A stretch of 60,779 nucleotides of DNA, counting the filler. It is 5 parts of 5 records of this genome, joined end to end, with 100 filler letters (N's around TTAATTAATTAA, not from the genome) between each part and the next. Parts side by side here need not be neighbours in the genome. Positions count along the whole stretch, not along the records: positions 10,509 to 30,939 come from SRR31156797_2527; 4 more parts are not named here. The stretch is one strand, 5' to 3'. Numbering within the stretch: the first letter of the stretch is position 1; each line of letters starts with the position of its first letter. Below are positions 18,392 through 34,296 of this stretch, in pieces. The translations under genes were made by a program, and so were the position numbers. Below the pieces are notes generated by a model, which was not told the origin of the DNA, made no database searches, and saw nothing but the letters and a program-made list of their open reading frames with translations.

Positions 18392-19264
18392 CTAGGAATA
18401 CTCTTTTATCCAGTCCAGAAATATATTCGCTTTTGCATGACCAGGTAAGGGTGATTTTAAATAGTAATAGCTTCCTGTGTTGAATATTTTTCCTTTATGG
18501 ATGCTCACCAAACTTCCATTATCGAGATACTGTTTAAGAAATAGTACAGGGAGCAAAGCTATCCCAAGCCCATGGATTGCCGCCTGAATAGCCAGTATGG
18601 TATTGTCCAAAGTGATTGGAGTTTCAATAGAATTAATGTTCTTACCCTCACTCCTAAACCATAGAGGCCAAAGATCCTGCCTAGAGTTAATCATAATTAG
18701 AGGGAAGCTACATATATTAGAATTTTCTTCAAAATTGTACTTTTGTATAAAAGATGGGCTACAGACTAACGCCGAATATTCTGTCAGAAAATCCTCACCT
18801 TTCAGACCTGAAAACTGGCTGGGGTCTCTTCTTATATATAGATCAATGTCCCTGTGAACAAAGACCGACTCAGAGCTTGTTGTCACCTGAAGCTCTAGGT
18901 CCGGATTCTGTTTCTGAAAATCATTTATCTTAGGCAGAAGCCAGTGCATAGCAAATGTTAGAGGTGTCTCTATATGAATAGTTTCTTTATTATTATATGT
19001 TTGAATCTCATGAGTCGCCTTGTGCAGTGTATCAAGGGAGAGACCTATTTTTGAAAAAAGGATTTTACCTTCTTTGGTCAATTCAACGTGTTTAGACTTT
19101 CTTTTAAACAGTTTCTTCCCGACATGATCCTCTAAATGTTTAATCTGCCTACTGACAGCACCGGGTGTAACACATAGTTCTTCTGCTGCTTTTTTAAAAC
19201 TGCCGAGTCTTGCTGACACCTCAAAAACGTTTACAGCATTAAGTGGAGTATTGCCTAAGCTCAT
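18392..19264 (-). CDS. LysR-type regulator (GcvA-like), putative PalR
   Basis: FEVSARLGSFKKAAEELCVTPGAVSRQIKHLE helix-turn-helix plus a substrate-binding domain; divergent from the phosphonoalanine operon. Confidence 0.88.
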   Translation of the reverse strand: MSLGNTPLNAVNVFEVSARLGSFKKAAEELCVTPGAVSRQIKHLEDHVGKKLFKRKSKHVELTKEGKILFSKIGLSLDTLHKATHEIQTYNNKETIHIETPLTFAMHWLLPKINDFQKQNPDLELQVTTSSESVFVHRDIDLYIRRDPSQFSGLKGEDFLTEYSALVCSPSFIQKYNFEENSNICSFPLIMINSRQDLWPLWFRSEGKNINSIETPITLDNTILAIQAAIHGLGIALLPVLFLKQYLDNGSLVSIHKGKIFNTGSYYYLKSPLPGHAKANIFLDWIKEYS

Positions 19265-19433
19265 TACACATTCCAAAGTTCAATATATTTTTAAAAGATT
19301 AGCTTATTATTTTGCCATAGGTCAAGTGAATTGAGGTTTTTAATTTTCAGACAATATTTCAGGCGTCTCATCAAATACTATCAACTATACCAAATAAATA
19401 TGTTTACTAGAACCTTATAGTCTCATTATGCTT

Positions 19434-19641: not shown

Positions 19642-20718
19642 ATGTCACATATAAGCTGCAGAAATATTTCTATAAAATACGGCAAAAACACAGTCATCGA
19701 TAAAATGAATCTAGAGATTGAAGATGGTAGCTTTTTCACACTGCTCGGTCCCAGCGGATGCGGGAAAACCACTCTGTTGAGAGCTATCGCCGGATTCATT
19801 AACCCAAGTGCCGGAAGCATTTATTTCGACAGGGACAACATCACGAATGTTCCTGCTCATAAAAGAAATATAGGATTTGTTTTTCAGGGGCACGCCCTAT
19901 TTCCGAATTTAAATGTGTTCGATAATATCGCTTACGGACTGAGAGCAAGAAAGGTACGCGAAAGAGAGATATCCGGCATGGTCTCAGAAGCGGTTGAGAT
20001 GGTTGGTCTAAAAGGCTTTTCCGACAGATTTCCATCCGAGATGAGCGGCGGACAGCAGCAGAGGGTTGCTCTTGCGCGAGCTCTTGTTATTCGCCCATCA
20101 GTTCTTCTTATGGATGAGCCGCTATCGAGCCTCGATACAAAACTAAGATGCCAGATGCGCAACGTCATAGCAGATATTCAAAAAGAGATAGGCATAACAA
20201 CTGTTTTTGTTACCCATGACCAGGAGGAGGCGCTGGATCTTGCTACAAATATTGCTGTTCTCAAAGATGGTGCAATCGAACAGGTAGGTTCTCCCTATAA
20301 AATCTATACAGAGCCTGAGACGGCATTTGTTGCTGACTTTATAGGTTCTGCTAACCTCATAAAGGTTGATGATGTCCGCGGCATTAAGCCTGGACTTGCA
20401 ACATGTAAACTGAATAACGGTAAATATATAAAAGCAAGTATTGATGCTGATTCAAAGCTGAACGGTTCCGGCGCTTTTCTGGTCGCCCGTCCGGAAGAGC
20501 TTTCCATCAGAAATGAAAATACTGAATCAGGCAACTGCATAAAAGGAACCCTCGTAAGGACGCAGTACCTGGGATATAAAACAACCAGCACTGTCAGAGT
20601 GCATAACGAGCTGGATATAATAGTAGACGAGATAAACTCAGACATAATACATAAGAGCGAAAACGGAACTGATGTGTATGTGCACATACCAGAAACCAGC
20701 CGACTGGTAAGGGGCTGA
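19642..20718 (+). CDS. ABC importer ATP-binding subunit (PotA/FbpC/PhnT type), putative phosphonoalanine uptake
   Basis: GPSGCGKT, MSGGQQQR, DEPLSSLD, VTHDQEEA and a C-terminal TOBE-like region. Confidence 0.9.
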   Translation: MSHISCRNISIKYGKNTVIDKMNLEIEDGSFFTLLGPSGCGKTTLLRAIAGFINPSAGSIYFDRDNITNVPAHKRNIGFVFQGHALFPNLNVFDNIAYGLRARKVREREISGMVSEAVEMVGLKGFSDRFPSEMSGGQQQRVALARALVIRPSVLLMDEPLSSLDTKLRCQMRNVIADIQKEIGITTVFVTHDQEEALDLATNIAVLKDGAIEQVGSPYKIYTEPETAFVADFIGSANLIKVDDVRGIKPGLATCKLNNGKYIKASIDADSKLNGSGAFLVARPEELSIRNENTESGNCIKGTLVRTQYLGYKTTSTVRVHNELDIIVDEINSDIIHKSENGTDVYVHIPETSRLVRG

Positions 20719-20722
20719 TACT

Positions 20723-22360
20723 ATGAGAAGAAATAGCCCTTGGTACTGGCTGACACTCTTTTCATGCCTGTTCCTTTTTATCTGTGTGCTTCTGCCAGCT
20801 TTTAATCTTATCTTCTCAAGTTTTCAGGCGGCTGACGGCACTTTGACGTTAGACGGTTTCAGAACATTCTTTGCCGAAGATGTGTATGTCAAAGGTCTGA
20901 GAAATTCATTAATACTCTCCATCGTAGTAACTATTTTATCCATAATGCTGGGTGTTCCACTCGCATTCATAACCGTCAGGTACAACATACCTATGAAAAC
21001 AGTTTTGAGTATTCTCCCTATAACAATAATTGTCATACCTGAGCTTATAACGACTCAGGCATGGCTTGTGGTTTTCGGATACAACGGTTTCCTGACCAAC
21101 TTCCTAAGCGGATACAACATAGACCTGCCTAACTTTTACGGTTGGTTCGGTCTGATATTTGTACTGACACTCACATACTACGTTCATGTATATATGGGCG
21201 CACTGGCGGCTTTAAGAAGCTTTGACGTACAGCTCGAAGAGGCAGCTCAGAGTCTCGGCAGAACACCGCTCATAGCACGTATAAAAACAATGATACCTCT
21301 CGTCGCCCCAGCTATCTTCTCAAGCGGGCTTGTCATCTTCACACTGGTTTTGGGTGACTTCTCCGTAGCGATAATCCTAGGTCACGGCGTACCTCTACTA
21401 TCAGTATTAACCTATAATAGTTTCCTAAGCGAGATCGGTCTTAACCCCATTATGCAGAGCACCCTAGCCACTGTCTCCATACTTATCGTCGCAGGAGTTC
21501 TCTTTTTTCAGAAGAGAGTTTTCGGTAAAAGAAATTACCAGATGACACAGGGTAGAAGCTGGATTCCTGTAAACCTGACAGGGATAAAGGGAAAAGCCGC
21601 TCTCAGCTATGTTTTCATACTTGTTGCGCTCACTCTGATGCCCCTGCTTCTTATAATGATCGCCTCAGTTACAAAGTCCATAGGACCTGTCATGCACTGG
21701 GGAGAGTTCACTCTCAGCCATTTTGAACGTGTATGGATATACGGCAGAGACATTTTAGTAAACTCACTGACATACGCATCACTTGCGACACTATTTGGCG
21801 TAATTTTCGGCTCCGTGGCTTCATATCTTATAATTAAGAAGAAGAATATATTTACAGGCGGGCTTGATTTTCTTGTGATGCTCCCTCTTGCCATATCAGG
21901 AACAGTGCTCGGTATATCTCTTGCACAGGCGTTTAATTCCGGTTTAATCGTTCTCACAGGAACCCCTGTTATAATGGTTTTAGCTATGATTATCAGAAGG
22001 CTACCTTTCGCTGTCAGAAACGCTTCAGCAAATCTTTATAACATTTCAGACTCTATAGAAGAGGCATCTATAAGCCTCGGAGTTCCACAGCTTAAAAGCT
22101 TTTTAAAGGTTGTCATACCGCTTATGGCTCCGGGCATAGCGTCTGCGGCTGTTCTTATGTGGGCTATGACAATGGCAGAATTAAATTCAACTCTGATTGT
22201 TTATCAGGCAGGTCAGGAGACACTCCCAATACAGATATTTCGATTAATAGACAGCGACCTTATGGGGCAGGCATCGGCCTTTGGGGTTTTGATGATCAGT
22301 ACAATCCTGCTACCGATTTTTGTGGCAGTAAAGTTCTTTAAAATAAAGTTGTTCAAGTAG
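20723..22360 (+). CDS. ABC importer fused double permease (FbpB type)
   Basis: About 12 hydrophobic segments and two EAA loops (LEEAAQSLG, IEEASISLG). Confidence 0.9.
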   Translation: MRRNSPWYWLTLFSCLFLFICVLLPAFNLIFSSFQAADGTLTLDGFRTFFAEDVYVKGLRNSLILSIVVTILSIMLGVPLAFITVRYNIPMKTVLSILPITIIVIPELITTQAWLVVFGYNGFLTNFLSGYNIDLPNFYGWFGLIFVLTLTYYVHVYMGALAALRSFDVQLEEAAQSLGRTPLIARIKTMIPLVAPAIFSSGLVIFTLVLGDFSVAIILGHGVPLLSVLTYNSFLSEIGLNPIMQSTLATVSILIVAGVLFFQKRVFGKRNYQMTQGRSWIPVNLTGIKGKAALSYVFILVALTLMPLLLIMIASVTKSIGPVMHWGEFTLSHFERVWIYGRDILVNSLTYASLATLFGVIFGSVASYLIIKKKNIFTGGLDFLVMLPLAISGTVLGISLAQAFNSGLIVLTGTPVIMVLAMIIRRLPFAVRNASANLYNISDSIEEASISLGVPQLKSFLKVVIPLMAPGIASAAVLMWAMTMAELNSTLIVYQAGQETLPIQIFRLIDSDLMGQASAFGVLMISTILLPIFVAVKFFKIKLFK

Positions 22361-22387: not shown

Positions 22388-23380
22388 ATGAAAAAGCTTT
22401 TCAACCGACTCTTTGTGACAACATGTATGGCTGCGCTACTCAGTTTGGTTTCTGTCAGCACAGCTAGTGCGGCAGAGGTAACACTTTACGCAGCAAACAG
22501 CGAAGACTCTATCCAGACTGTTCTGGATGTGGTCAGAAAACAAGCACCTGACCTTAAGGTTAATGTTATCAGAGCAAAAACAGGCGCTCTTCTTCAGAGG
22601 ATTGTAGCTGAAAAGAAGAAACCTGTCGGTGATGTTTTCTGGAGCAGTGGTTTTGGAACACTTGCGAGCTACACTGATGTGGCAAAGTCCTATAATTCAA
22701 AAGCGGCTTCTGCAATACCTTCATCAATGCACGGCCCTGAAAACAAGTGGCTCGGATCTAACGTCCACGTTGTAGTGCTCATGGTAAATAAAAAACAGCT
22801 TAAAGGGAGCGCACCTAAAGGGTGGGAAGATATCCTCTTCGGAGATGGAAAAGAGAGAGTCGCTTTCGCAGACCCTTCAGCTTCAAGCTCAGCTTACCTT
22901 CAGCTCTTCGGAATATACAAAAAATACGGCGAGGAAGGCGTTAAAAAACTTGCTGAAAAAGTCATAGTCACAGGCGGTTCAAGCAGTGTTTACAAAGGTG
23001 TGGCGCAGGGCGAATACGCAGTAGGTATCACTATCGAATACGCAGCTTACCGCTATGTTGCTGGTGGTCAGAAATCTATTAAACTTGTGTACCCTAAAGA
23101 GGGAACTTTCCTCTCGCCAGAAGGTATGTTCATCATTAAAAACGCACCTCACAGTAAAGAAGCTAAAAGACTTTTCGAAATTATGGCTTCGAAAGCTGCA
23201 CAGGAAAAGATATTTGAAAAGAGCTATAGAAGACCTACAAGGTCAGATGTGGAAGTTTCAAAAATATCGTCACTTCCTGACTACAGTGAGATAAACATCT
23301 TTGAAATCGATCAGACAGAAGCCGGAGCGAATAAAAACAGGGTTATCAAACTCTGGAAAAATGCACTCGCTTCAAAATAA
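22388..23380 (+). CDS. ABC importer periplasmic binding protein (AfuA/PhnS type)
   Basis: Signal peptide ending ASA-AE; TGALLQRI...DVFW, ADPSASSSAY, YPKEGT and RRPTRSDV motifs; RBS AAGGAG. Confidence 0.88.
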   Translation: MKKLFNRLFVTTCMAALLSLVSVSTASAAEVTLYAANSEDSIQTVLDVVRKQAPDLKVNVIRAKTGALLQRIVAEKKKPVGDVFWSSGFGTLASYTDVAKSYNSKAASAIPSSMHGPENKWLGSNVHVVVLMVNKKQLKGSAPKGWEDILFGDGKERVAFADPSASSSAYLQLFGIYKKYGEEGVKKLAEKVIVTGGSSSVYKGVAQGEYAVGITIEYAAYRYVAGGQKSIKLVYPKEGTFLSPEGMFIIKNAPHSKEAKRLFEIMASKAAQEKIFEKSYRRPTRSDVEVSKISSLPDYSEINIFEIDQTEAGANKNRVIKLWKNALASK

Positions 23381-23439: not shown

Positions 23440-24651
23440 GTGAAATATATGATACAAATTGCAAAAAGGCTCTCCGGCGTAAAACCCTCGCAAACAAAAG
23501 CAATCGCTCAAAAAGCTGCCGAACGGAAAGCTCAGGGGTATGATGTCATATCTCTAAATGTCGGCGAACCGGACTTTGATACATCTGAAAACATTATCAA
23601 TGCTGGCATATCCGCCATGAAAGAGGGTCACACAAGATACACTTTGGTGCCGGGGGTGCTACCGCTCAGAGAAGTTATCTCCACTTCCCTGGAAAATGAT
23701 CACGGCATCAGATATACACCAGAAGAGATAACTGTCTGCACCGGTGCTAAGCAAGTGCTCTATAACGCCCTTTTAGCTACAATTGATCAGGGTGACGAAG
23801 TAATACTTATCGCTCCATGCTGGCCGTCATATCCAGATATGGTCTCCCTTGCAGGTGGCGTACCAGTCATCGTAAACTCTTCAAGAAGAAATGATTTCTT
23901 ACCTGACTTAAAAGATATAGAATCTAAAATCTCAGGCAAAACCAAGTGGATACTCATGAATTACCCGAACAACCCTACTGGGGCAATCCTGAATGATGAC
24001 TACCTTGAGCAGTTCGCAGATATTCTCTCACGTAATCCACACGTGTCTATCCTGTCTGATGATGTTTATGAAAAGATAGTTTATCCCGGCGAACAGTTCA
24101 AGCACCTGCTCACAATCGCTCCTAAGCTGAAAGACCGCTGTTTAATGGTGAACAGTGTCTCTAAAGCGTACTGTATGACAGGCTGGAGGATAGGATACGG
24201 AGCAGGTCCTGCAGAACTCATCAAAACCATGAACATGATCCAGTCCCAGACAACATCTCATGCGACATCCATATCACAATATGCCGCCATAGAAGCCCTC
24301 AGCGGACCACAAACAAGCCTCAAAGAGATGGTTGCACACTACTATAAAAGAGCGAAATTCGCACATGAAAAGCTAAATAGTATTAATGGTATAAAATGCC
24401 TCATGCCTAAAGGTACATTCTACCTATTACCAGACTGTTCAGAGATATCAGGTATGAGGAAACCGGACGGAAATTTAATAAAAAATGATATAGATTTCTC
24501 AGCATACTTAATGGAAGAAGCTGGAGTTGCAGTGGTTCCCGGCAGCTCTTTCTTCGCAGAAAACAGCTTCAGAGTTTCATCTGCTACATCTATGGAAAAC
24601 CTCGCTTCCGCTCTCGATAAGATTGCAGAAGCTGTAAATAAATTAAAATAA
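23440..24651 (+). CDS. Class I/II PLP aminotransferase (AspC-like), putative phosphonoalanine aminotransferase (PalB-like)
   Basis: GEPDFDT, NYPNNPTG, DDVY and SVSKAYCMTGWRIGY (PLP Lys). It lies 9 bp upstream of the phosphonopyruvate hydrolase gene. The start may be ATG 23449. Confidence 0.85.
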   Translation: MKYMIQIAKRLSGVKPSQTKAIAQKAAERKAQGYDVISLNVGEPDFDTSENIINAGISAMKEGHTRYTLVPGVLPLREVISTSLENDHGIRYTPEEITVCTGAKQVLYNALLATIDQGDEVILIAPCWPSYPDMVSLAGGVPVIVNSSRRNDFLPDLKDIESKISGKTKWILMNYPNNPTGAILNDDYLEQFADILSRNPHVSILSDDVYEKIVYPGEQFKHLLTIAPKLKDRCLMVNSVSKAYCMTGWRIGYGAGPAELIKTMNMIQSQTTSHATSISQYAAIEALSGPQTSLKEMVAHYYKRAKFAHEKLNSINGIKCLMPKGTFYLLPDCSEISGMRKPDGNLIKNDIDFSAYLMEEAGVAVVPGSSFFAENSFRVSSATSMENLASALDKIAEAVNKLK

Positions 24652-24660
24652 GAGAGATAA

Positions 24661-25533
24661 ATGAATAAAAACAAAAATATCAAACAGATTATTGATGATA
24701 ATGGGTTATTTCATGCTATGTCAGCTCATAACGCTCTCTCTGCCAAATTGGCACAAGAGGCAGGTTTCAACGGAATATGGGCTAGCGGATTCGAACTTTC
24801 GGCAGCACACGGTATACCTGATGCGAGCCTGCTCTCTATGACACAACACCTCGAAAGCACACGCTCCATAGCATCACAGGTTTCCATACCGGTTATAGCT
24901 GATATAGACACAGGATATGGTAACGCCATAAATGTTATGCATGTAACCGAAGCTTACGAACAGGCTGGGGCATCCGCCATAGTTATGGAAGATAAGAAAT
25001 TCCCGAAAGATACAAGCCTTCTTGAAGGCGGAAGACAGGAGCTTGTTTCTATCAGTGAGTTTCAAGGAAAGATAGAAGCCGCAATAACTGCAAGAGAGTC
25101 ATCAGATTTCCTTATTATAGCCAGAACAGAAGCTCTTATAGCTGGTCAGGGGGTCGAAGAAGCCCTCAAGCGTGCATACTCATATGCCAATTCTGGAGCT
25201 GATATGATTCTGGTTCACTCTAAATCAGATAAACCTGATGAGATATTACTCTTTATAGACAAGTGGGATGGTCGCATACCTATTGTGTTGGTTCCAACAA
25301 GCTATCCGGAGCTCACCGAGGAGAGGATGAAAAAAAGTGGTAAAGTCGGTGTCGTAATTTATGGAAACCATGCTGTAAGAGCGGCGGTCACTGCTATGCA
25401 GGAAATATTCGCTGAAATCCGCAATGACGGCGGGATACACAACGTTAATAGTAAAATTGTTTCTGTTAAGGAAATTTTCAGGTTGCAGGAGGTTGCAAAA
25501 ATGAAGGATAATGAAAAGAAATTTATAAAGTAA
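24661..25533 (+). CDS. palA: Phosphonopyruvate hydrolase (ICL/PEP-mutase superfamily)
   Basis: 290 aa with [39 protein letters not shown] and [12 protein letters not shown]. The K-D-T-S loop is the hydrolase type, whereas PEP mutase has K-x-N-S. It is collinear with Variovorax Pal2 PPH as I recall that sequence. Confidence 0.88.
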
Positions 25534-25553
25534 ATTTATTCAGAGAGGATCAT

Positions 25554-26831
25554 GTGGATAATTTAACCTTACAACCTATATCGAAAATTAATGGCACTAT
25601 AGACCTGCCCGGCTCAAAAAGTATATCTAACCGTGTCCTACTTCTGGCTACGCTTGCAGAGGGCGAAACAAAACTTGAGAACCTGCTGCACAGCGACGAC
25701 GTGAAACACATGCTGAACGCCCTTAAAATACTCGGGATAGAATATACAAAATCTGATGATAATACTTACAGTATTTCAGGTGCTAAAAAGATAGAAATCG
25801 ACAAACCTGTTGAGCTTTACCTCGGCAATGCCGGTACAGCTATGAGATCACTCTCTGCTGCTCTCGCTTTTTCAAAGGGAGAGTTTACACTTACCGGCGA
25901 CCCCAGAATGCTGGAAAGACCTATTAAAGACCTTGTAGATGCACTCACATCAGCAGGGGCAGATATAAAATACTTACAGAATGACGGCTACCCTCCCCTA
26001 AAGATAAAAGGCTCCGGATTAAAGGACGCCAGAATGAAAGTTAAAGGGGACATATCGAGCCAGTTTTTGACGGCACTCCTTATTGCCGCACCCCTGACAG
26101 GCAGTTCTGTTGTGATAGATGTTGAAGGGGAGCTTGTCTCAAAACCTTATATATTGATGACTATCGACCTTATGGAAAGATTTGGCGTTCATGTTAAAAA
26201 CAGTAATTACCAAAGCTTCACTGTCGAAGGCGGGCAGTCTTACGTTTCGCCCGGCTTTTTAAAGGTTGAGGGTGATGCTTCGTCTGCTTCATATTTTCTC
26301 GCTGCCGGTGCTATAGCCGGAGGGAAAGTCAGGGTTAACGGTGTCGGGTCTGAAAGCATACAGGGTGACAAAAATTTTGCTGAGGTGCTGGGGCTGATGG
26401 GGGCTGATGTTCTCTATGGTAAAGATTTTGTCGAAGTTTCGAAGTCAGGTCCCTTAAAAGGGGTAGATATAGACATGAACAGCATGCCTGATGCCGCTAT
26501 GACAATAGCTGTGGCTGCGCTGTTTGCTGATGGTAAGACAGCTATCAGAAACATATATAACTGGCGTGTTAAAGAGTGTGACAGGCTTGCTGCTATGGCT
26601 ACTGAGCTAAGGAAAGTCGGCGCAGAAGTTGTTGAAGGTGATGACTATATCGAGATTACACCTCCTGAGGAGATAAAATACGGTGTAATAGACACCTATG
26701 ACGACCACAGGATGGCGATGTGTTTCTCTCTGGTCGCTCTAGGGAGTGCACCCGTGACCATAAACGACCCGGCGTGTGTGAATAAAACATTTCCAGAGTA
26801 TTTTGATTATTTTTCTAAGCTAACCTCTTAG
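25554..26831 (+). CDS. aroA: 3-phosphoshikimate 1-carboxyvinyltransferase (class I EPSP synthase) with Ser at the E. coli P101 position
   Basis: [63 protein letters not shown] and KTFP; GTG start with RBS GAGAGGA, 20 bp after palA. Confidence 0.95.
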
Positions 26832-26861: not shown

Positions 26862-28076
26862 TTAAAAATATTTTTTTAAGCGGAGTTCGATCTTCCCTGA
26901 AACAGGCTTTTCACCATACTCAGTATATCTCTCTCTCGAGAGTGCTGTCGCTTTAACTTTCAGCTCGTAGTTTGTAAAACCGGTGTATTTGATCTCAGGC
27001 GATGCAGAAAAACTCCCGTCGTCAGCATTTAAAATCATAGTAAAAGCTGGAGTCAGATAAAGTATACCAAACGGCTCTTTCACTGACATTCTGAAGTAAA
27101 TATAGTCCTTCATGGCAAAGTTTTTAAGAACAGCCCTGTCTGCCTTGTAGAGATTTTCCATCTCACTTTCAGTAAAGCCTTCAGACCTATGATAGTATTC
27201 TCCTATCACTGTAACCTCACTGTCTGTAAGATATCTGAAACCTAGCAGGTAGTTATCAGAAGTTTCTTCTGTACTGCCCATAGGTGTATAAAGCTCATAG
27301 CTATGCAGCCTTGCATACTCTCCGTGCATTTCGAATGCTGAGGTGATGTTTTTAGAAAAATCAAAACCGTATTTTGAGCCGCCCGAATCCACCGTGGAAA
27401 ACATAAAATCTATATCAGTATCATGTAAAAGCAGATAAAGCTTTCCCGCATAACCAACCCCGTCCGCACCGGACATACTGCGGTTCATATCGTCATTTAC
27501 ATAGTAAACAACCGGCGTGACAGAAAAATTTTTAAGGGCTCCGCCAACGTTCTTTATGTATTCCGCTGAAAGGAGATAACGACCTTCAAGAATCGCCTCC
27601 GGATCGTCCGGATTCTTCTGCCTGTCGATAAGTGCTGCGGGGCTGAAAGCGTAGCCTTTACCCCACTTTATATTCTTCTTTCCGGCATACATTGTGAGAT
27701 TCTGTGATGCAGACCAACCTGCATAGCCTTCCAGAAATTTTGTAATCTGCCTGTACTCGCCTGTATCTTCTCTGCTGCCTAATGTATCTGAGATGAAGTT
27801 TAATTTAATATCCTCAAGCTCATAGGAGCCATTCAGGCGCAGCCTGGCATCAGCTGTCCACGCAGTGTCCTGAGGCTCTACGCTTTTGAACTTCGCATCG
27901 TAGCCGGCAGTATTTTTATCATAACTGTAAGCTGTCGAAATAAACTCCGCATAACCTCCGAAAGTGTAAGGTTTCTTCTCTATTTCGCTAAGGTCAAAAG
28001 TGTATTCCGATGCATAAGTATTAGCAGAAAAAAGCAGGCTGAGCGCTAAAACCCAGCCTGTCCTTAACATTTTCAT
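26862..28076 (-). CDS. Putative outer-membrane beta-barrel protein of an ABC exporter cluster
   Basis: Signal peptide, GKKNIKWGKGYAFSP motif, amphipathic strands and C-terminal aromatic end (KKYF); overlaps the upstream gene by 4 bp. Confidence 0.6.
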   Translation of the reverse strand: MKMLRTGWVLALSLLFSANTYASEYTFDLSEIEKKPYTFGGYAEFISTAYSYDKNTAGYDAKFKSVEPQDTAWTADARLRLNGSYELEDIKLNFISDTLGSREDTGEYRQITKFLEGYAGWSASQNLTMYAGKKNIKWGKGYAFSPAALIDRQKNPDDPEAILEGRYLLSAEYIKNVGGALKNFSVTPVVYYVNDDMNRSMSGADGVGYAGKLYLLLHDTDIDFMFSTVDSGGSKYGFDFSKNITSAFEMHGEYARLHSYELYTPMGSTEETSDNYLLGFRYLTDSEVTVIGEYYHRSEGFTESEMENLYKADRAVLKNFAMKDYIYFRMSVKEPFGILYLTPAFTMILNADDGSFSASPEIKYTGFTNYELKVKATALSRERYTEYGEKPVSGKIELRLKKYF

Positions 28077-28801
28077 CTGATTTCCTGCATACGTGACATA
28101 AAATCCATGGTGAATATCTCATCGGGAAATGCCCTGCTCTTAACCTTTGCAAAAATCATAACTGACTTATAGCCTTTATAAAGCGGTGAGTCGGTTTCTA
28201 TTACCGCAGGACGCTTTATACCGTCGCCAAAGTCTTTCACATCGCTGAAATGAAGTGTTTTTATCAGCATTTTCTCATCTGTCATACAATTAATTTCCAC
28301 TGGCAGCATGGTCTTTTTGTCCGCAGTAATGTTCACTCTGGCGTATGCTACAGTCTTTGTTTTCGCCTTAAGGCTGAGTAGAAGCTTATCGCCCTCTTCT
28401 GTCAGCTTTTCAACATCATACTCCTGAGCGTAATCCAGCCTCATGATATCTGCGTTGTTGAACACACCGCCTATGACAGACTGAAGGCTTGTAATCCTTA
28501 CCGGTCTTCCGACATTCGGGATGTAAAGCCACATATTATCTCCTAACCGGAGCGTACTCCGCCCTGTTTCACTTGCAGGTGCCAGAAACAGCGACGCTAT
28601 CTTCTCATCCCCTTTCTTAACAGTGTAGAGGACAAATTCCCTTCTGTCGCCGTCCGGCTGTATGTTGATAAGCTTTCTGTATGATTCGTAGCTTTCAGGC
28701 GAGAGATTGCGGTCTATCATCTTTAAAATATCTTCCGGAGTCTCTGCGAAAGCTGTTACAGCAAAAATAGTTAGCAGAGCAGTTAATAGTATCTTTTTCA
28801 C
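28073..28801 (-). CDS. Outer-membrane lipoprotein-sorting protein (LolA-like)
   Basis: FLAPASETGRSTLRLGDNMWLYIPNVGRPVRITSLQS and FNNADI motifs; signal peptide. Confidence 0.8.
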   Translation of the reverse strand: MKKILLTALLTIFAVTAFAETPEDILKMIDRNLSPESYESYRKLINIQPDGDRREFVLYTVKKGDEKIASLFLAPASETGRSTLRLGDNMWLYIPNVGRPVRITSLQSVIGGVFNNADIMRLDYAQEYDVEKLTEEGDKLLLSLKAKTKTVAYARVNITADKKTMLPVEINCMTDEKMLIKTLHFSDVKDFGDGIKRPAVIETDSPLYKGYKSVMIFAKVKSRAFPDEIFTMDFMSRMQEIR

Positions 28802-28809
28802 ATTATCAC

Positions 28810-30048
28810 CTATACGTGCCTGAGAGCTTTTATCGGATCCATACGCGACGCTTTGAAAGCTGGCTGGATACTCGCTATCACAGCAACGATAATCACTGTC
28901 ACAGATATTGTAATCAGCTGTGTATAATCCACAGATGCTGTAAGGAGCATATTCTCATTCCTGCCGAAACTAAATGTAAGCTCAGAAGCGTTTATCGCTG
29001 CCACGGCTATAACACTTGCTGCACTTCCGACAACTGCACCAAATATCCCGAGCAGAAGCCCCTCTGTGATAAACATAAGATTTATTTTAAGCGGGCTAGT
29101 CCCTATCGCCGCTGCTGTGCCTATCTCTCTCATACGCTCATACACAGCCATTATCATAACATTCAGAATGGATATCATAACCACCGCTACGAGAAGCATT
29201 TTTACAAAGAATGTCATAAGGTCTATCATCTTTACGATGTTTGAAAATGGTGAGATAGCCTCCCATGAATGCACATGAAAAGGTTCCTTTCCCATAGGGT
29301 TTACAAATCCGCCCACCTTCTCCTGAAACTTCTTCTCGAAAGCGTGGAGATTATTAAAATCTTTAAGTCTGATAGCTATTTCACTTATCTGAGGCTCATC
29401 CATGCGGAGTATCTCTATTGCGTCTTTTATATGTACATAGCCATCACGACCGCCAGGACCTGTGGCACTCTCAACAACACCTGAAACCTTTAGCTGTTTA
29501 CCGTTTACAGAGCCGTCCTGATTGGTGGCTATAACAACGACTGTATCACCTACCTTCACCTTAAGGGATTTTGCAAAAAGCTCAGGAACTATTATCTGAC
29601 CAGGCAGAAGCTCTTTGCTCCCCTCAGATATTCTGGCAGGGAGGAGTGGCGTAACTTTAAACTCCTTTTCAGGGTCAATACCGTTCAGTCGCATATTTGA
29701 TGTCTCTGAAAATGTAGAGAACATTCCACCGAATTTTATACGATAGGATACTGCCTCTATCTCATCAAATTCAGATGCTAATTCCTCATATTTATTTACC
29801 ATCATAGGTTTCATATTCATATGCAGAGGCAGGGTCTCTATAGCTCCCATATAGCCTTTTCTGTGCACCTGAATATGACCTGTCATAGAATCTGTGATCT
29901 GCGAAACCATCATAGCTTTGAACGAGCCTGTGACCGACACAAAAACAGATACAAACAAGACACCTATCACAACAAGAGAAACAGTGAGGAGCGTCCTTCT
30001 GCTGTATCTGAAAAGGTTTCTGGATGATATCTTCAGTATGTTTAACAT
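28810..30048 (-). CDS. MacB/FtsX-type ABC permease
   Basis: RNLFRYSRRTLLT, large periplasmic loop, AVYERMREIGT and PAFKASRMDPIKALR. Confidence 0.9.
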   Translation of the reverse strand: MLNILKISSRNLFRYSRRTLLTVSLVVIGVLFVSVFVSVTGSFKAMMVSQITDSMTGHIQVHRKGYMGAIETLPLHMNMKPMMVNKYEELASEFDEIEAVSYRIKFGGMFSTFSETSNMRLNGIDPEKEFKVTPLLPARISEGSKELLPGQIIVPELFAKSLKVKVGDTVVVIATNQDGSVNGKQLKVSGVVESATGPGGRDGYVHIKDAIEILRMDEPQISEIAIRLKDFNNLHAFEKKFQEKVGGFVNPMGKEPFHVHSWEAISPFSNIVKMIDLMTFFVKMLLVAVVMISILNVMIMAVYERMREIGTAAAIGTSPLKINLMFITEGLLLGIFGAVVGSAASVIAVAAINASELTFSFGRNENMLLTASVDYTQLITISVTVIIVAVIASIQPAFKASRMDPIKALRHV

Positions 30049-30722
30049 GACAGCACCCCGTCTTCCATTGTGTAGATTTTCTCTGCTATATCGACAACCT
30101 TAGGGTCGTGGGTGGAGAAGATAAAGCTTGTGCCGAACTCATCCCGCATGGATTTCATAAGGCTTATTATCTTCATCGATGTCTCGTTATCCAGATTTGC
30201 AGTAGGTTCATCAGCAAGGATGATAGAAGGCTCAGTAACAAGAGCTCTCGCTACCGCTGTTCTCTGCTTCTGTCCGCCTGAAAGCTGCGCCGGACGCTTT
30301 GAAGCGTGCTCTAGTATTCCTACGGCTGAAAGAACTTTCTCTATCCGCTTTTTTCTGATATCAGCAGGCAGATTCTGAACCATTATCAGCGGGTATTCCA
30401 CATTCTCATAAACACTGAGAACAGGCATAAGATTAAAATCCTGAAAAATAAACCCGATGTTTTCCCCGCGAAATTTCGCTGCCTGATTACGGTTTAAGTC
30501 AGACGGGTTCTGCCCGCACACAGTTATGCTACCCTCTGTAGGGCTATCCAGACAGCCTATGATGTTAAGTAGAGTGGTTTTACCGCTTCCTGACGGCCCC
30601 ACAAAGCTCACAAAAGAAGCCTCTTCAATAGTAAAACTGACATCTTTCAATGCCTGAACAGGGGCTGTACCACCACCCATGTCATAAGTTTTTATAATGC
30701 AATCAGCATTTACAAGTCCCAT
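30042..30722 (-). CDS. LolD-type ABC ATP-binding protein
   Basis: GPSGSGKT, LSGGQKQR, ADEPTANLD and STHD; RBS GGAGGTG supports ATG 30722. Confidence 0.92.
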   Translation of the reverse strand: MGLVNADCIIKTYDMGGGTAPVQALKDVSFTIEEASFVSFVGPSGSGKTTLLNIIGCLDSPTEGSITVCGQNPSDLNRNQAAKFRGENIGFIFQDFNLMPVLSVYENVEYPLIMVQNLPADIRKKRIEKVLSAVGILEHASKRPAQLSGGQKQRTAVARALVTEPSIILADEPTANLDNETSMKIISLMKSMRDEFGTSFIFSTHDPKVVDIAEKIYTMEDGVLSC

Positions 30723-30939
30723 ACACACCTCCAATCTGGAAGAATAATGCAATTACAATGCCATATCTGATCATTTGATTTATAGGCTGTTGCAATATTT
30801 TTATGTGCATATTCTGCACACTATATGTAATTTTAGCACGTTTTAAGAAAGGTTAATTAAATATTGAATCACGACAGTATTAGTAAATTAAGAATAGTAA
30901 GCAGACTGCGACGTCCTCCCATTAAATCAGACAGAAGCT

Positions 30940-31039
30940 NNNNNNNNNNNNNNNNNNNNNNNNNNNNNNNNNNNNNNNNNNNNTTAATTAATTAANNNNN
31001 NNNNNNNNNNNNNNNNNNNNNNNNNNNNNNNNNNNNNNN
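30940..31039. other. Artificial contig-joining spacer
   Basis: Same N44-TTAATTAATTAA-N44 linker. Confidence 0.98.
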
Positions 31040-31765
31040 CAGATCCACCATGCCGTGCTGCATGAGATGACCGCCCGCATTGTCCGTGATCACCGTGTGA
31101 TTAATCCCGTGTTTTCCCAGTTCCCAGGCGGTCAGGCGGGCGCCCTGGTTCAAAGGCCTTGTTTCATCCACCCAAACATGAACGTCAATGTTATGGTCAA
31201 AAGCCGTATAGATGGGGGCGGTGGCCGTACCGTATTCCACACAGGCCAGCCAGCCAGCATTGCAGTGGGTCAGGATATTGACCGGTTGGCCGCTTTTCTT
31301 TCGGCTGATATCCTCAATGATGGATAAACCGTATCGACCGATCTCCTGACAATTAAAGGCTTCTTCCTCAACCACTTCCAGGGCTTCCGACAGTGCGGCC
31401 GTTACGCGGGTGTTGTAATCGATTTCTTTGAGCACAACATTCCGAACCCGGTCCACACCCCAGAAAAGGTTCATGGCTGTGGGCCTGGCATCCTTGAGGC
31501 GTTTACATTCCGTTTCAAGGTAATCATTGTCCGCCCCCCTGTTGTTTTCCTGCACAAGGCTCACATAAACCCCCAAAGCACCGGTGGCGCCAATGAGGGG
31601 TGCACCCCTAACAACCATCTCTTTGATGGCGTAAATGACATCATCCACCGTGTTTAAGTCCTTAATAATAAATTCATGGGGAAGAAACCGCTGGTCAATG
31701 ACCTGAACGGTTTCGGATGCCTTATCAAACCAGACGGGCCGCATCTCCTTTCCATCTACTTTCAT
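31040..31765 (-). CDS. mtnA: S-methyl-5-thioribose-1-phosphate isomerase (3' truncated)
   Basis: IDQRFLP, MVVRGAPLIG, RPTAMNL, LTHCNAGWLA, GTA and DETRPLNQGARLTAWEL motifs. Confidence 0.93.
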
Positions 31766-31896
31766 ATTCAATTCTCCGGTATATCATTTGGATTCATAAC
31801 GCTTTTAAATCACATATCACCACAAATGCCATTATGCGACCATATCACACCTGATTATGGTTTGGCGACTTCCCTATTTATGCCTCCCCACAAATC

Positions 31897-32754
31897 CTAC
31901 TTCAGCATACCCCTCAGACACTCCAGGTTCCGTCGATCCCAGTCGATACCCCCCTCTTTCTTGGGGGTTTCCAGGATTTTCGGTATATGGGCCAGACGTT
32001 CGTCGTTCATGATCAGGGAGAACCCCGAAAACCCGATCTTCCCTTTTCCGATATGGGTGTGGCGGTCAACCCTGGAACCCAGGTCCTGCAGGGCGTCGTT
32101 GAGATGGATCACTTTGAGCCGGTCCAAGCCCAAGACAGCATCAAAAGTAGCCATGGTCTTGTGATAGCTTGCTTCGGTGCGGATGTCATAGCCGGCGGCG
32201 AAAATATGGCAGGTATCGAGGCAAAAACCGAGGCGCTCGGGCTGTTCCACCCTTTCGACAATGGCGGCGAGCTGTTCGAAGGTATGCCCCAGCGTCGTGC
32301 CCTGGCCGGCACAGGTTTCCAGCAGGAGCCGCGGGCCGTTTCCTTGGTTTTCACCAAGCACCCGGTTGATGCCTTCGGCAATCCGTTTGATACCCGCGGC
32401 CTCGCCGGCCTCCATATGAGCGCCGGGGTGATGGACCACCATGGGGATGCAGAGTTGGAAAGCCCGCTTCATTTCGTGGATCAGGGCGCTACAGGAGCGA
32501 TCGAATTTTTTCTTTTCCGGCGAGCCGAGATTGATCAGGTAAGCCGTGTGGGAAGCGATGGCGGTAATGCCCGTCTCCTGTCGTGCCCGGTGGAAGGTCT
32601 CAATATCCTGGTCGGTCAGAACCCTTTCTTTCCAGGTACTGGCATTTTTAGTGAAGATCTGGGCTGCCGTGCAGCGATAGTCTCCGGCCGTATACAAAGC
32701 CTTGTGAAGGCCGCCGGCAATGGAAAAATGGGCACCGAGAATCGGAGAAAACAC
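31897..32754 (-). CDS. nfo: Endonuclease IV
   Basis: LGAHFSIAGG, QIFTKN, HTAYLINL, HPG, LLETCAGQG, DTCHIFAAGYD, HLND, DRH and LETPK motifs. Confidence 0.95.
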   Translation of the reverse strand: MFSPILGAHFSIAGGLHKALYTAGDYRCTAAQIFTKNASTWKERVLTDQDIETFHRARQETGITAIASHTAYLINLGSPEKKKFDRSCSALIHEMKRAFQLCIPMVVHHPGAHMEAGEAAGIKRIAEGINRVLGENQGNGPRLLLETCAGQGTTLGHTFEQLAAIVERVEQPERLGFCLDTCHIFAAGYDIRTEASYHKTMATFDAVLGLDRLKVIHLNDALQDLGSRVDRHTHIGKGKIGFSGFSLIMNDERLAHIPKILETPKKEGGIDWDRRNLECLRGMLK

Positions 32755-32960
32755 CTGAATTCACCCCTTGAAAAATATGAAGAGAGTCTCACCAAAGCAA
32801 ACCTATAAGTCAAGGTAAAATCGAAGGTCGTTTAAATGTTGACATGAAAAGAAACTCATGGATAATTAGAATAAACGGGTTGTTTTAGGAAAACAGCCGA
32901 ATTCAAGTTTCCTTGTCGGATCTCAACCTATGACGCTACCTAAAATGAAAGGGGGGCTCC

Positions 32961-33413
32961 ATGAACGACAATACCGTTGAAATTAGACTCATGAAGGCTG
33001 AAGACTATGACGCCGTGGTTGGGATTGACGCGAAAGTACTCAAGTCTTCGCGGCCGGAGTATTATAATGTGAAATTTGAAAAGCTTTTCAAAACCAAAGA
33101 TTATCTGCCGGCATCCTTGGTGGCGGAGCAAAAAGATGGAACGGTCGTGGGATTCGTAATGGGGGAAATCTTTATCGGAGAATACGGTATTTTCCAGGAG
33201 GCGGCCACCCTGGATACCATCGGCGTTGACCCCGATTGCCAGCAAAGGGGTATCGGCGAACAGCTGATTAACGAATTTATGGAACATTTAAAAAAGCTCG
33301 GTGTAAAAAAAATAAGCACATTGGTTGCCTGGAACGATTCCAATCTGATACAATTTTTCAACGCCAACCAATTTAGTCCCTCAAAAACCATTTACCTGGA
33401 AAGAACTGTTTGA
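32961..33413 (+). CDS. GNAT family N-acetyltransferase
   Basis: IGVDPDCQQRGIG acetyl-CoA-binding motif A; G-rich RBS. Confidence 0.88.
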   Translation: MNDNTVEIRLMKAEDYDAVVGIDAKVLKSSRPEYYNVKFEKLFKTKDYLPASLVAEQKDGTVVGFVMGEIFIGEYGIFQEAATLDTIGVDPDCQQRGIGEQLINEFMEHLKKLGVKKISTLVAWNDSNLIQFFNANQFSPSKTIYLERTV

Positions 33414-33439
33414 TTCCTGGGATCATGATGAAGATATCC

Positions 33440-33491
33440 CCGAAGAAGCGCTCATCAAAGATTATTGGATACTGAATCAGCGTTTCTTCGG
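33440..33491. repeat. Intergenic inverted repeat (13-bp arms)
   Basis: CCGAAGAAGCGCT ... AGCGTTTCTTCGG downstream of the GNAT gene. Confidence 0.45.
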
Positions 33492-33672
33492 ATAGTCCCA
33501 TCCTCCATTTAAAGAAATTCAACCTAATTTCCGATCATTTACAAACAAATTAACATCACAGCCTAATAATCCGGAATTCGTAAAGAAAAGTTCCTGCCGG
33601 AAATTTTTCAGCGTGAAGTCCCTGATGGGTGATTTCACTCTTAAAGCCGTAATCTCGGGGAAGGAGGCAATA

Positions 33673-33969
33673 ATGGCCATTAAAGTGCTCATTACCAGAC
33701 GTTTTAAAGACGAATTCGTTCATGAGGCCCATTATCATAACGCGGAAATTCGAGCCCTTGCTACCGTTCAACCCGGCTATGTATCCGGAAAGACAATTAT
33801 CAACATCGACAATCCCAACGAAATGATCATTGTCAGCACCTGGGAAAGCAAAGAAGATTGGGACAACTGGTACAAAAAAGAAGTCAGGCAGGATTTTTAC
33901 AAGAAGTTGAGACTTTCGCTTGAAGAGGGAGAAAAAATATCCTTTTACAAGTCGGCCGCTAGAAAATAA
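33673..33969 (+). CDS. Antibiotic biosynthesis monooxygenase (ABM) family protein
   Basis: MAIKVLITRR...QPGYVSGKT...VSTWESKEDWDNW; RBS AAGGAGG before ATG 33673. Confidence 0.85.
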   Translation: MAIKVLITRRFKDEFVHEAHYHNAEIRALATVQPGYVSGKTIINIDNPNEMIIVSTWESKEDWDNWYKKEVRQDFYKKLRLSLEEGEKISFYKSAARK

Positions 33970-33991
33970 GGCATTGACAACTGGAGGGTAC

Positions 33992-34061
33992 GGGGACGCT
34001 CTTACTATTTAAACATTTGGTGATATCAAAACAATGAAGTTGAAAAGTTGAGAACGTCCCC
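33992..34061. repeat. REP/MITE-like inverted-repeat element
   Basis: GGGGACGCTCT (33992-34002) and AGAACGTCCCC (34051-34061) are complementary with one mismatch and flank an AT-rich spacer. Confidence 0.45.
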
Positions 34062-34137
34062 CCCTCGAGGGAAACAAAATCGAATCGAAATGATCCGCCC
34101 TTCCACGGAATTGATCATGGGTTATAAGGTTCGGCCC

Positions 34138-34296
34138 TCATTGTCCATGGTATATTTCGTGGAAAAGTTTTTCAAACCAAGGGGGTTTGTTAAAGAGAAC
34201 ACCCATAAGGATCACTCCGAGAATCGGGAAGGGGATGACCATATCCACAACACTCAGCAGAATCAATACAGCGAGGATCTTCGTTCTGGCGCTCAT
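34138..34296 (-). CDS. Small membrane protein (52 aa)
   Basis: MSARTKILAVLILLSVVDMVIPFPILGVILMGVLFNKPPWFEKLFHEIYHGQ: a hydrophobic hairpin, downstream of and co-oriented with the SBP genes. Confidence 0.55.
   Translation of the reverse strand: MSARTKILAVLILLSVVDMVIPFPILGVILMGVLFNKPPWFEKLFHEIYHGQ

What the first reader, a model, noticed from the sequence alone, without database searches (positions are those of the whole stretch)
25824..25853. The aroA carries the glyphosate-tolerance substitution (E. coli P101S / plant P106S equivalent)
Seen: the PEP-site motif reads [10 protein letters not shown], and codon TCA at 25848-25850 gives Ser99. Known: class I EPSPS normally has [10 protein letters not shown], and Pro-to-Ser at this position is the established glyphosate-tolerance mutation in Salmonella/E. 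coli aroA and in resistant weeds. The Gly96 and Thr97 equivalents (G94, T95) are wild type, so it is not the TIPS double variant. The C-terminal motif is also slightly atypical (RVKECDR rather than RVKETDR). Inference: this is a naturally occurring tolerant allele. Its position beside C-P catabolic genes suggests selection by a phosphonate, either natural or the herbicide.
Basis: partly seen in the sequence, partly recalled or inferred. Interest (0 to 1): 0.8.

Follow-up and report, generated by a model that had tools for sequence, protein, structure and literature searches.

The report
Natural Ser-variant EPSP synthase after palA
This is an intact EPSP synthase gene that naturally carries serine at the site of a known weak glyphosate-tolerance mutation and sits just after a phosphonoalanine-degradation operon, but serine there is common in nature, so it is mostly ordinary.

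Summary
aroA (25554-26831, +) reads [11 protein letters not shown]. Ser99 (TCA, 25848-25850) aligns with E. coli Pro101, and Cys342 (RVKECDR) aligns with Thr342. G94 and T95 are wild type, and all 20 ligand residues I checked are conserved. The gene starts 20 bp after a phosphonopyruvate hydrolase gene (palA), at the end of a LysR/ABC-importer/aminotransferase/palA cluster.

Ser at this site is a recurrent natural state. A capped scan of species genomes returned 92 Ser and 3 Thr EPSPS loci, from Fibrobacterota, Rubritalea, SAR324, Burkholderiales, insect symbionts and others. None had a palA homologue in the DNA held, and the contexts I sampled are housekeeping ones (tyrA-aroA-cmk, serC-aroA-cmk). 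Among the 150 best family representatives, 9 have Ser and 21 have Cys342. Among close homologues, Ser and Cys are confined to three sequences. The nearest of these (87% identical) is probably not next to a palA.

The enzyme is probably modestly glyphosate-tolerant by analogy, which is untested. Nothing points to herbicide or phosphonate selection. The palA-aroA adjacency is unusual and unexplained. A co-expressed phosphonate-insensitive isozyme remains a minority possibility.

The parts
18392..19276 (-). LysR-family regulator, divergent from the pal genes
   Evidence: hits only LysR-family models (best GcvA subfamily, 241 bits, below cutoff). It occupies the same position as the LysR gene of the Variovorax pal cluster.
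19642..20718 (+). ABC importer ATPase (PhnT2-like)
   Evidence: TIGR03265 at 356 bits, below the cutoff of 457.7.
20723..22360 (+). Fused two-domain ABC permease (PhnU2-like)
   Evidence: TIGR03262 at 174 bits, below cutoff.
22388..23380 (+). Periplasmic substrate-binding protein (PhnS2-like)
   Evidence: TIGR03261 at 136.7 bits, below cutoff. SBP_bac_6, and a weak Phosphonate-bd hit.
23440..24651 (+). Class I/II PLP aminotransferase, candidate phosphonoalanine transaminase (PalB)
   Evidence: PF00155 at 236.7 bits; aspartate-transaminase-like, 465 bits, below cutoff. It has the same position as the aminotransferase upstream of palA in Variovorax and Mesorhizobium.
24661..25533 (+). Phosphonopyruvate hydrolase (PalA)
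   Evidence: TIGR02321 at 409.5 bits (cutoff 374.4); the PEP mutase model scores 287 (cutoff 319.55); full-length alignment to Variovorax PPH (2dua), 372 bits, with FPKDTSL as in PPH where the PEP mutase 5unc has FPKVNSF.
25543..25549 (+). Shine-Dalgarno-like GAGAGGA, 4 nt before the GTG start of aroA; the palA stop to aroA start gap is 20 nt
   Evidence: Read directly.
25554..26831 (+). aroA, class I EPSP synthase, 425 aa
25824..25853 (+). [10 protein letters not shown] motif, the region named in the finding
25848..25850 (+). TCA = Ser99, equivalent to E. coli Pro101
26577..26579 (+). TGT = Cys342, equivalent to E. coli Thr342 and next to Glu341
26862..30752 (-). Convergent cluster that closes the unit: porin-like protein, LolA-like protein, MacB/FtsX permease, ABC ATPase

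Best explanation
The gene encodes a catalytically intact class I EPSP synthase. Its Ser99 and Cys342 are ordinary natural variants of the family. They are not signs of herbicide or phosphonate selection.

By analogy with the E. coli and Salmonella Pro101Ser enzymes, Ser99 probably lowers glyphosate affinity modestly while keeping catalysis. That step is inferred, not shown.

The gene lies 20 bp after palA, at the 3' end of a phosphonoalanine-utilisation cluster (LysR regulator, ABC importer, aminotransferase, PalA). It is probably co-transcribed with that cluster. I read the adjacency as a lineage-specific gene-order accident or a loose co-expression. I do not read it as a dedicated role in C-P catabolism.
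For: Intact enzyme:
- TIGR01356 scores 483 bits.
- The protein is 59-66% identical to solved and named EPSPS.
- All 20 canonical S3P/PEP/glyphosate-contact residues are conserved (the residue list is recalled).

Ser is a common natural state:
95 are EPSPS, 92 with Ser and 3 with Thr, spread over at least six phylum-level groups.
- 0 of the 95 have a palA homologue in the DNA held. 67 had up to 2 kb of flank and 28 had about 300 bp.
- Flanks were annotated in six loci. Four are housekeeping: Rubritalea tyrA-aroA-cmk, Mycoavidus pheA-tyrA-aroA-cmk, Sodalis serC-aroA-cmk, Gillettellia aroA-cmk. The Fibrobacter and SAR324 loci showed neither aromatic-pathway nor phosphonate genes.
- Among the 150 best 50%-identity cluster representatives, position 99 is F 82, P 43, S 9, L 7, T 3, I 1, gap 5. 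Position 342 is T 107, C 21, S 20, gap 2.
- On a 40-row tree at least 5 Pro/non-Pro changes are needed.

pal linkage is not general:
- The canonical Variovorax operon ends at palA.
- 55 plasmid records with PalA/Ppm-like genes share no accession with the 30 listed of 36 aroA-bearing records.
- The best PalA homologues are only 72-77% identical. None of the 120 listed sits on a contig of 946,813 bp, which is the longest contig holding P0002, the 87% Ser/Cys relative.

No compositional sign of recent insertion: aroA GC3 is 0.43, against 0.35-0.51 for its neighbours.

Low tolerance of P101 variants is stated in PMC4709569 (passage). Pro101Ser is listed as a Salmonella resistance mutation in PMC11718153 (Table 3 passage).
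Against: - The 20-nt gap, same strand and good ribosome-binding site make co-transcription with an inducible catabolic operon likely, which is odd for a sole housekeeping aroA.
- The simple scan found no sigma-70-like site on the + strand between 23930 and 25701 (weak evidence, since the consensus may not apply to this host).
- Among close homologues Ser and Cys are rare. 3 of 163 carry them, the same three for both residues.
- The branch to P0001+P0002 is long: 0.56-1.16 substitutions per site, with 29 private positions.
- The usual aroA neighbours (cmk, tyrA, serC, rpsA) are absent here.
- aroA's nearest Atlas clusters are Pseudomonadota. The downstream gene's nearest clusters are Thermodesulfobacteriota, and the best named PalA is from Desulfovibrio. 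This would fit an acquired extra copy.
- Whether the genome has a second aroA is unknown. None is in the window.
Confidence: 0.6

Rival explanations
1. Protective isozyme. This EPSPS is a dedicated copy co-expressed with the pal operon. Its Ser99 (possibly with Cys342) makes the PEP site less sensitive to the phosphonates that accumulate during growth on phosphonoalanine. By my recollection phosphonoalanine is a constitutional isomer of glyphosate and phosphonopyruvate is an isomer of PEP. The copy would keep aromatic amino-acid synthesis running, as a resistant-target gene inside a catabolic cluster.
For: - 20-nt spacing, same strand, ribosome-binding site, and no terminator-like site between palA and aroA.
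- aroA is displaced from its usual housekeeping neighbours (against 66 and 74).
- Long private branch.
- Taxonomic discordance between aroA and its neighbours.
- The substitution is the one known to reduce binding of a phosphonate PEP-site inhibitor.
Against: - No recurrence. 0 of 95 Ser/Thr EPSPS loci have palA in the DNA held.
- pal clusters seen elsewhere lack aroA.
- The 87% relative is probably not palA-linked.
- Ser-type enzymes are plain housekeeping genes in other lineages.
- I found no report that phosphonoalanine or phosphonopyruvate inhibits EPSPS. 0 papers hold 'phosphonopyruvate hydrolase' with 'EPSP synthase'. The 2 papers with phosphonoalanine, glyphosate and EPSP, and the 8 with phosphonopyruvate and 5-enolpyruvylshikimate, were seen as listings and showed no such claim. 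Two of them I searched by term, PMC10574752 and PMC4943196, and the passages shown held no such claim.
- A second aroA has not been shown.
Confidence: 0.2
2. Herbicide-selected allele. Ser99 was fixed recently under glyphosate exposure, as in Salmonella mutants and resistant weeds.
For: The substitution is identical to the laboratory and field resistance mutation.
Against: - The same Ser is shared with homologues that are 87% and 65% identical, so it predates any recent exposure.
- Ser is fixed across whole old lineages such as Fibrobacterota and Rubritalea.
- No glyphosate-degradation genes (C-P lyase, gox) were seen among the ORFs of at least 150 aa that I annotated on the contig.
Confidence: 0.03
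3. Recruited AroA homologue with new chemistry. It would act together with the PEP-mutase-family enzyme next to it, as proposed for the AroA-PPM pair of the Streptomyces arseno-organic gene cluster.
For: There is a precedent for an aroA homologue transcriptionally coupled to a PEP mutase (PMC4943196, passages read).
Against: - This protein is 59-66% identical to genuine EPSPS and keeps every S3P- and PEP-contact residue checked. The Streptomyces recruits form a divergent clade.
- The neighbour is a hydrolase by model score and by the PPH-type FPKDTSL motif, not a mutase.
- The ORFs annotated on the contig gave no phosphonopyruvate decarboxylase, PKS or arsenic genes.
Confidence: 0.03
4. Sequencing or assembly error: the true codon is CCA.
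For: Draft assembly. The window is five contigs joined by N linkers.
Against: Two independent database sequences have Ser at the same site together with the same Cys342.
Confidence: 0.02

Closest known systems
E. coli / Salmonella EPSPS Pro101Ser (PDB 2qfs/2qft; Salmonella aroA mutant)
   Same: Class I enzyme about 59% identical to this one. It has the same Ser at the aligned position, with Gly96 and Thr97 unchanged. It is listed as a bacterial glyphosate-resistance mutation (PMC11718153; PMC3371024).
   Different: There Ser is a selected or engineered mutation in a Pro-type background. Here it is the natural state of a small lineage and is accompanied by Cys342. No kinetics exist for this enzyme.
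Natural Ser-type class I EPSPS of Fibrobacterota, Rubritalea, SAR324, Burkholderiales and Enterobacterales endosymbionts
   Same: They have [10 protein letters not shown] with an otherwise canonical motif. They are 44-61% identical to this protein.
   Different: They have Thr342, or Ser in SAR324. Four of the six loci whose flanks I annotated lie in tyrA/serC-aroA-cmk type contexts. None is beside palA in the DNA held.
Variovorax pal (phosphonoalanine degradation) operon
   Same: It has a divergent LysR gene, an ABC importer (binding protein, ATPase, fused permease), an aminotransferase and a 290-aa PalA. PalA here is about 60% identical and collinear (PMC3266647 and PMC10574752, passages).
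   Different: The order of the transporter genes differs. The Variovorax operon stops at palA, and the next gene is a convergent esterase. Here aroA follows after 20 nt.
AroA-PPM pair of the Streptomyces arseno-organic gene cluster (SLI_1096/1097)
   Same: An EPSPS-family gene sits next to, and is probably co-transcribed with, a PEP-mutase-superfamily gene (PMC4943196).
   Different: That cluster is biosynthetic, with a divergent AroA clade, a true mutase, Ppd and PKS. Here the AroA is canonical and sits after a hydrolase in an import and catabolism cluster.
TIPS (T97I/P101S) and class II (CP4) glyphosate-insensitive EPSPS
   Same: They are the same enzyme family. TIPS shares the Ser.
   Different: Thr95 (equivalent to Thr97) is unchanged and Gly94 (equivalent to Gly96) is Gly. 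The chains deposited under 2gg4/2pqb, which I recall to be CP4 EPSPS, match only at E about 1e-32, against 1e-161 to 1e-167 for E. coli and Vibrio chains.

Membership tests
Class I EPSP synthase (aroA, TIGR01356 / PF00275) | Family HMM score above the curated cutoff over the full length | tested here: met
   483.2 bits against a cutoff of 287.25, covering residues 14-423.
Class I EPSP synthase (aroA, TIGR01356 / PF00275) | Conserved S3P/PEP-contact residues (K22, S23, R27, N94, G96, T97, R124, S169, S170, Q171, S197, Y200, D313, N336, K340, E341, R344, H385, R386, K411 in E. coli numbering; list recalled) | tested here: met
   20 of 20 are identical at the aligned positions (numbering from the alignment).
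Class I EPSP synthase (aroA, TIGR01356 / PF00275) | EPSPS catalytic activity | not testable with these tools
   Needs complementation of an aroA deletion or an enzyme assay.
Pro101Ser-type glyphosate-tolerant EPSPS | Ser at the position aligned with E. coli Pro101 | tested here: met
   Ser99 pairs with Pro101 of 1g6s and with Ser of 2qfs.
Pro101Ser-type glyphosate-tolerant EPSPS | Raised Ki for glyphosate relative to a Pro-type enzyme | not testable with these tools
   Inferred by analogy only. A paper passage calls the tolerance of P101 variants relatively low (PMC4709569).
Pro101Ser-type glyphosate-tolerant EPSPS | Ser arose under inhibitor selection (derived and recent) | tested here: not met
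   Ser is shared with 87% and 65% identical homologues. It is fixed in several old lineages in housekeeping contexts.
TIPS double variant | Ile at the Thr97 equivalent together with Ser at the Pro101 equivalent | tested here: not met
   Residue 95 is Thr.
Class II (CP4-like) EPSPS | Closest similarity to class II enzymes, with Ala at the Gly96-equivalent site | tested here: not met
   Gly94 is present. The chains 2gg4/2pqb, which I recall to be CP4 EPSPS, match at E 1e-32 to 1e-33, against 1e-161 to 1e-167 for E. coli and Vibrio chains.
pal (phosphonoalanine) catabolic operon | PalA above the equivalog cutoff, an adjacent aminotransferase, an ABC importer and a divergent LysR gene | tested here: met
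   The architecture compares with Variovorax.
pal (phosphonoalanine) catabolic operon | aroA is a conserved member of the operon | tested here: not met
   It is absent after palA in Variovorax and Mesorhizobium. There is no accession overlap between PalA-bearing and aroA-bearing plasmid records among those listed. 0 of 95 Ser/Thr EPSPS loci have palA in the DNA held.
pal (phosphonoalanine) catabolic operon | aroA is co-transcribed with palA in this genome | tested here: inconclusive
   20-nt gap, same strand, no terminator-like or promoter-like site in between. No expression data.
Recruited AroA of PPM-containing biosynthetic clusters | Divergent AroA clade next to a true PEP mutase and Ppd | tested here: not met
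   The AroA is canonical. The neighbour is a hydrolase. No Ppd was found among the annotated ORFs.

The most novel reading that the evidence does not exclude
The EPSPS is a second, pal-operon-driven isozyme. Its PEP site (Ser99, perhaps with Cys342 next to the catalytic Glu341) is insensitive to imported phosphonoalanine and to the phosphonopyruvate made from it. This would be a resistant-target gene embedded in a catabolic operon, of the kind otherwise known from antibiotic biosynthetic clusters. It would imply that natural phosphonates, not the herbicide, shaped the Pro101 site in several bacterial lineages.
Probability: 0.15. Interest if true: 0.7.

Novelty: new member of a known kind. Interest (0 to 1): 0.25.

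Why it matters
If only the ordinary reading holds, the practical lesson is about interpretation. Ser at the Pro101 site is a widespread natural state of class I EPSPS. It is fixed in Fibrobacterota and Rubritalea, is found in several symbionts, and occurs in about 6% of the diverse representatives examined. A Ser at this position in a genome scan, or in a screen that classes microbes as glyphosate-sensitive, should therefore not be read as evidence of herbicide exposure.

If the minority reading holds, it would show that natural phosphonate metabolism selects EPSPS variants. It would also give a natural rationale for the 'glyphosate-tolerance' position.

Tried and rejected
It recovered neither the window's own genome nor the genome encoding P0002 (best identity to P0001 was 61%). 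The context of the closest Ser/Cys relatives therefore could not be read. 25 of the 120 rows were by-catch: 24 loci of an unrelated Clostridia protein that also contains [10 protein letters not shown], and 1 chance match.

Accessions and contigs stayed unknown.

3. Is the Ser/Cys trio one clade? A 57-row quick tree said yes (SH-aLRT 95). A 40-row tree that included Ser-type lineages split it: P0045 with the Pro-type P0126 (99), and P0001+P0002 elsewhere. With the two trait columns removed, the AU test did not reject monophyly (p 0.39, delta lnL 5.2). One origin against two is unresolved. Only 3 private shared positions support the trio, and 3 of 40 random-third controls reach that number.

4. 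The promoter and terminator scan found no more than shuffles give: 21 against 16.9 +/- 4.3, and 9 against 6.6 +/- 3.1.

5. GC3 and codon usage give no boundary between palA and aroA.

6. A search for inverted repeats in the lysR-pal intergenic region gave nothing interpretable.

7. The kinetic paper on P101S (PMC2665107) is not held, so I quote no Ki values.

8. The Atlas searches gave only phylum-level hints. The tool text warns against using it for taxonomy.

No supplementary files were consulted.

Full report
WHAT IS THERE. The ORF 25554-26831 (+ strand, GTG start, 425 aa) translates to a protein that contains [18 protein letters not shown] and [11 protein letters not shown]. Ser99 is TCA at 25848-25850. 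Cys342 is TGT at 26577-26579. The protein scores 483.2 bits on NCBIfam TIGR01356 aroA (cutoff 287.25). It matches the solved Vibrio and E. coli enzymes at E 1e-161 to 1e-167. In the printed alignment to E. coli EPSPS (1g6s), Ser99 pairs with Pro101 and Cys342 pairs with Thr342. The E. coli chain with Ser at that site (2qfs) scores marginally better than wild type. Gly94 and Thr95, the Gly96 and Thr97 equivalents, are unchanged. All 20 ligand-contact residues I checked are conserved (the residue list is recalled).

SURROUNDINGS. The window is not one piece of DNA. It is five contigs joined by N44-TTAATTAATTAA-N44 linkers. aroA lies on the 20.4-kb contig 10509-30939.

Upstream on the same strand lie:
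- an ABC ATPase, a fused permease and a binding protein, all PhnT2/U2/S2-like but below cutoffs;
- a class I/II aminotransferase;
- a 290-aa phosphonopyruvate hydrolase (TIGR02321 at 409.5 bits, cutoff 374.4).

The hydrolase is collinear with the Variovorax PPH structure 2dua. It carries the PPH-type FPKDTSL where a PEP mutase has FPKVNSF. A LysR gene is divergent.

This is the pal (phosphonoalanine) cluster described for Variovorax and Burkholderia (PMC3266647 and PMC10574752, passages read). The Variovorax paradoxus copy has the same components and ends at palA. Here aroA starts 20 nt after the palA stop and is preceded by GAGAGGA. It is followed by a convergent cluster of porin-like, LolA-like, MacB/FtsX and ABC genes. 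No terminator-like or + strand promoter-like site lies between palA and aroA, but the scan as a whole found no more than shuffles give.

HOW COMMON IS SER AMONG CLOSE HOMOLOGUES? Rare. I had 163 sequences in hand: the query plus 162 hits from two searches. Of these, 159 have Pro, 3 have Ser, and 1 did not match my pattern. The same 3 (P0001, P0002 at 87% identity, P0045 at 65%) are the only ones with RVKECDR. A profile of the three scored P0002 at 919 bits and P0045 at 875 bits, and the next hit at 728 bits. No further member was found among the 8000 candidates scored.

HOW COMMON IS SER ACROSS THE FAMILY? Common. I scanned one genome per species for GNAGTAMR followed by a W-S-N codon. 95 rows are EPSPS, 92 with Ser and 3 with Thr. 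They come from Fibrobacterota (the majority), Rubritalea, a Crocinitomicaceae MAG, SAR324, Planctomycetota, several Burkholderiales, and Enterobacterales insect symbionts. The other 25 rows are by-catch.

None of the 95 has a PalA homologue in the DNA held. 67 loci had up to 2 kb on each side and 28 had about 300 bp. I annotated flanks in six of them:
- Rubritalea has tyrA-aroA-cmk.
- Mycoavidus has pheA-tyrA-aroA-cmk.
- Sodalis has serC-aroA-cmk.
- Gillettellia has aroA-cmk.
- The Fibrobacter and SAR324 loci showed no aromatic-pathway and no phosphonate genes.

In the unindexed search of 1.84 billion cluster representatives, the 150 best are 40-62% identical to the query. At position 99 they have F 82, P 43, S 9, L 7, T 3, I 1, gap 5. 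At position 342 they have T 107, C 21, S 20, gap 2. One of them combines Ser and Cys, and two combine Pro and Cys. Neither residue is exceptional, and the two are not strictly coupled.

IS THE SER TIED TO PAL? I found no support for this.
- The 95 Ser/Thr loci above have no palA in the DNA held.
- 55 plasmid records with PalA- or PEP-mutase-like genes share no accession with the 30 listed of 36 records that carry an aroA homologue.
- The two pal loci I opened have no aroA.
- The best PalA homologues in the 5.8-billion-cluster database are 72-77% identical (first named: Desulfovibrio sp. Fe33). None of the 120 listed lies on a contig of 946,813 bp, the longest contig carrying P0002. The nearest Ser/Cys relative is therefore probably not next to a PalA orthologue. 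This is an inference from contig lengths.

ORIGIN OF THE SER/CYS TRIO. This is unresolved. A 57-row tree joins the three (SH-aLRT 95), with the Pro-type P0126 as sister and a very long stem (1.16) to P0001+P0002. A 40-row tree with Ser-type lineages added pairs P0045 with P0126 (99) and places P0001+P0002 elsewhere. Without the trait columns, the AU test does not reject monophyly (p 0.39). The trio shares only three private positions, a number that 3 of 40 controls reach.

HOST AND COPY NUMBER. No second aroA lies in the window. The rest of the genome is not available. The gene downstream resembles Thermodesulfobacteriota porin-like clusters. The best named PalA is from Desulfovibrio. aroA's nearest clusters and hits are Pseudomonadota. 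This could mean an acquired copy. However, a 60%-identical Pro-type aroA is the housekeeping gene (pheST-ispH-aroA-rpsA) in a Sulfurovum, so this type is not confined to Pseudomonadota. The composition of aroA matches its neighbours.

MECHANISM AND VERDICT. Shown: an intact class I EPSPS with natural Ser99 and Cys342, placed immediately after palA. Inferred: modestly reduced glyphosate binding, by analogy with Pro101Ser. That mutation is listed as a Salmonella resistance mutation (PMC11718153, Table 3 passage). P101 substitutions are described as giving relatively low tolerance with high catalytic efficiency (PMC4709569, passage). The structural explanation, that the change shifts the Gly96-Thr97 helix, is recalled from Healy-Fried et al. 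2007, which I did not read.

I put 0.6 on the ordinary reading: natural variant, with adjacency that is incidental or merely co-transcriptional. I put 0.2 on a pal-co-expressed phosphonate-insensitive isozyme. That idea rests on the tight spacing, the displaced context and the long branch. It lacks recurrence and any published evidence that phosphonoalanine or phosphonopyruvate inhibits EPSPS. The searches found no such report. I saw the papers as listings and searched two of them, PMC10574752 and PMC4943196, by term. A related precedent is an AroA homologue coupled to a PEP mutase in a Streptomyces arseno-organic cluster (PMC4943196, passages). It differs in every defining feature I tested.

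NOVELTY. This is a new member of a known kind. No paper in the library searched holds 'phosphonopyruvate hydrolase' together with 'EPSP synthase', or EPSPS, Fibrobacter and glyphosate together. The wide natural spread of Ser at this site, and the palA-aroA adjacency, may therefore be unremarked. Neither changes what is known about the enzyme.

NOT CHECKED:
- reads;
- the rest of the genome;
- the contigs of P0002 and P0045;
- the closed metagenome and viral collections;
- supplementary files.

Noticed in passing
window 10409-10508, 30940-31039, 41306-41405, 51574-51673: The window is five contigs joined by N44-TTAATTAATTAA-N44 linkers. Genes on different segments are not shown to be neighbours in the genome. 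The ORF 30992-31771 (-) runs into a linker and is an artefact of the joining.
   Followed up: yes
window 31040-41305: This contig has GC 0.52-0.59, against 0.35-0.45 for the other four. It may be bin contamination or a foreign island.
   Followed up: no
L010, L014, L015, L020, L023, L027, L034, L035, L041, L066, L072, L080 and 12 more (Clostridia MAGs): A conserved protein unrelated to EPSPS contains the same decapeptide [10 protein letters not shown] within ...[24 protein letters not shown].... I did not identify its family.
   Followed up: no
L026 (Crocinitomicaceae MAG) against L070, L004, L065 (Rubritalea): The EPSPS of the Bacteroidota MAG nests inside the Rubritalea clade on a very short branch. 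This suggests MAG contamination or recent transfer.
   Followed up: no
L001, L013, L017 (one Fibrobacter MAG, three contigs): Three different contigs of the same MAG each carry a Ser-type EPSPS. These are either paralogues or mixed strains in the bin.
   Followed up: no
window 26862-30752 (-): A four-gene cluster converges on aroA. It holds a 404-aa protein with no Pfam or NCBIfam hit whose nearest Atlas clusters are 'porin'/hypothetical proteins of Thermodesulfobacteriota (score 0.99), a LolA-like protein, a MacB/FtsX permease and an ABC ATPase.
   Followed up: partly
P0338 and P0288 (representative proteins): P0338 (564 aa, 52% identical) independently combines Ser at the Pro101 site with RVKECDR. 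P0288 (716 aa, 59% identical) has Pro with RVKECDR. Both are longer than a plain EPSPS and may be fusions.
   Followed up: no
best 150 family representatives: Phe, not Pro, is the commonest residue at the Pro101-equivalent position among the more distant EPSPS representatives (82 of 150).
   Followed up: no
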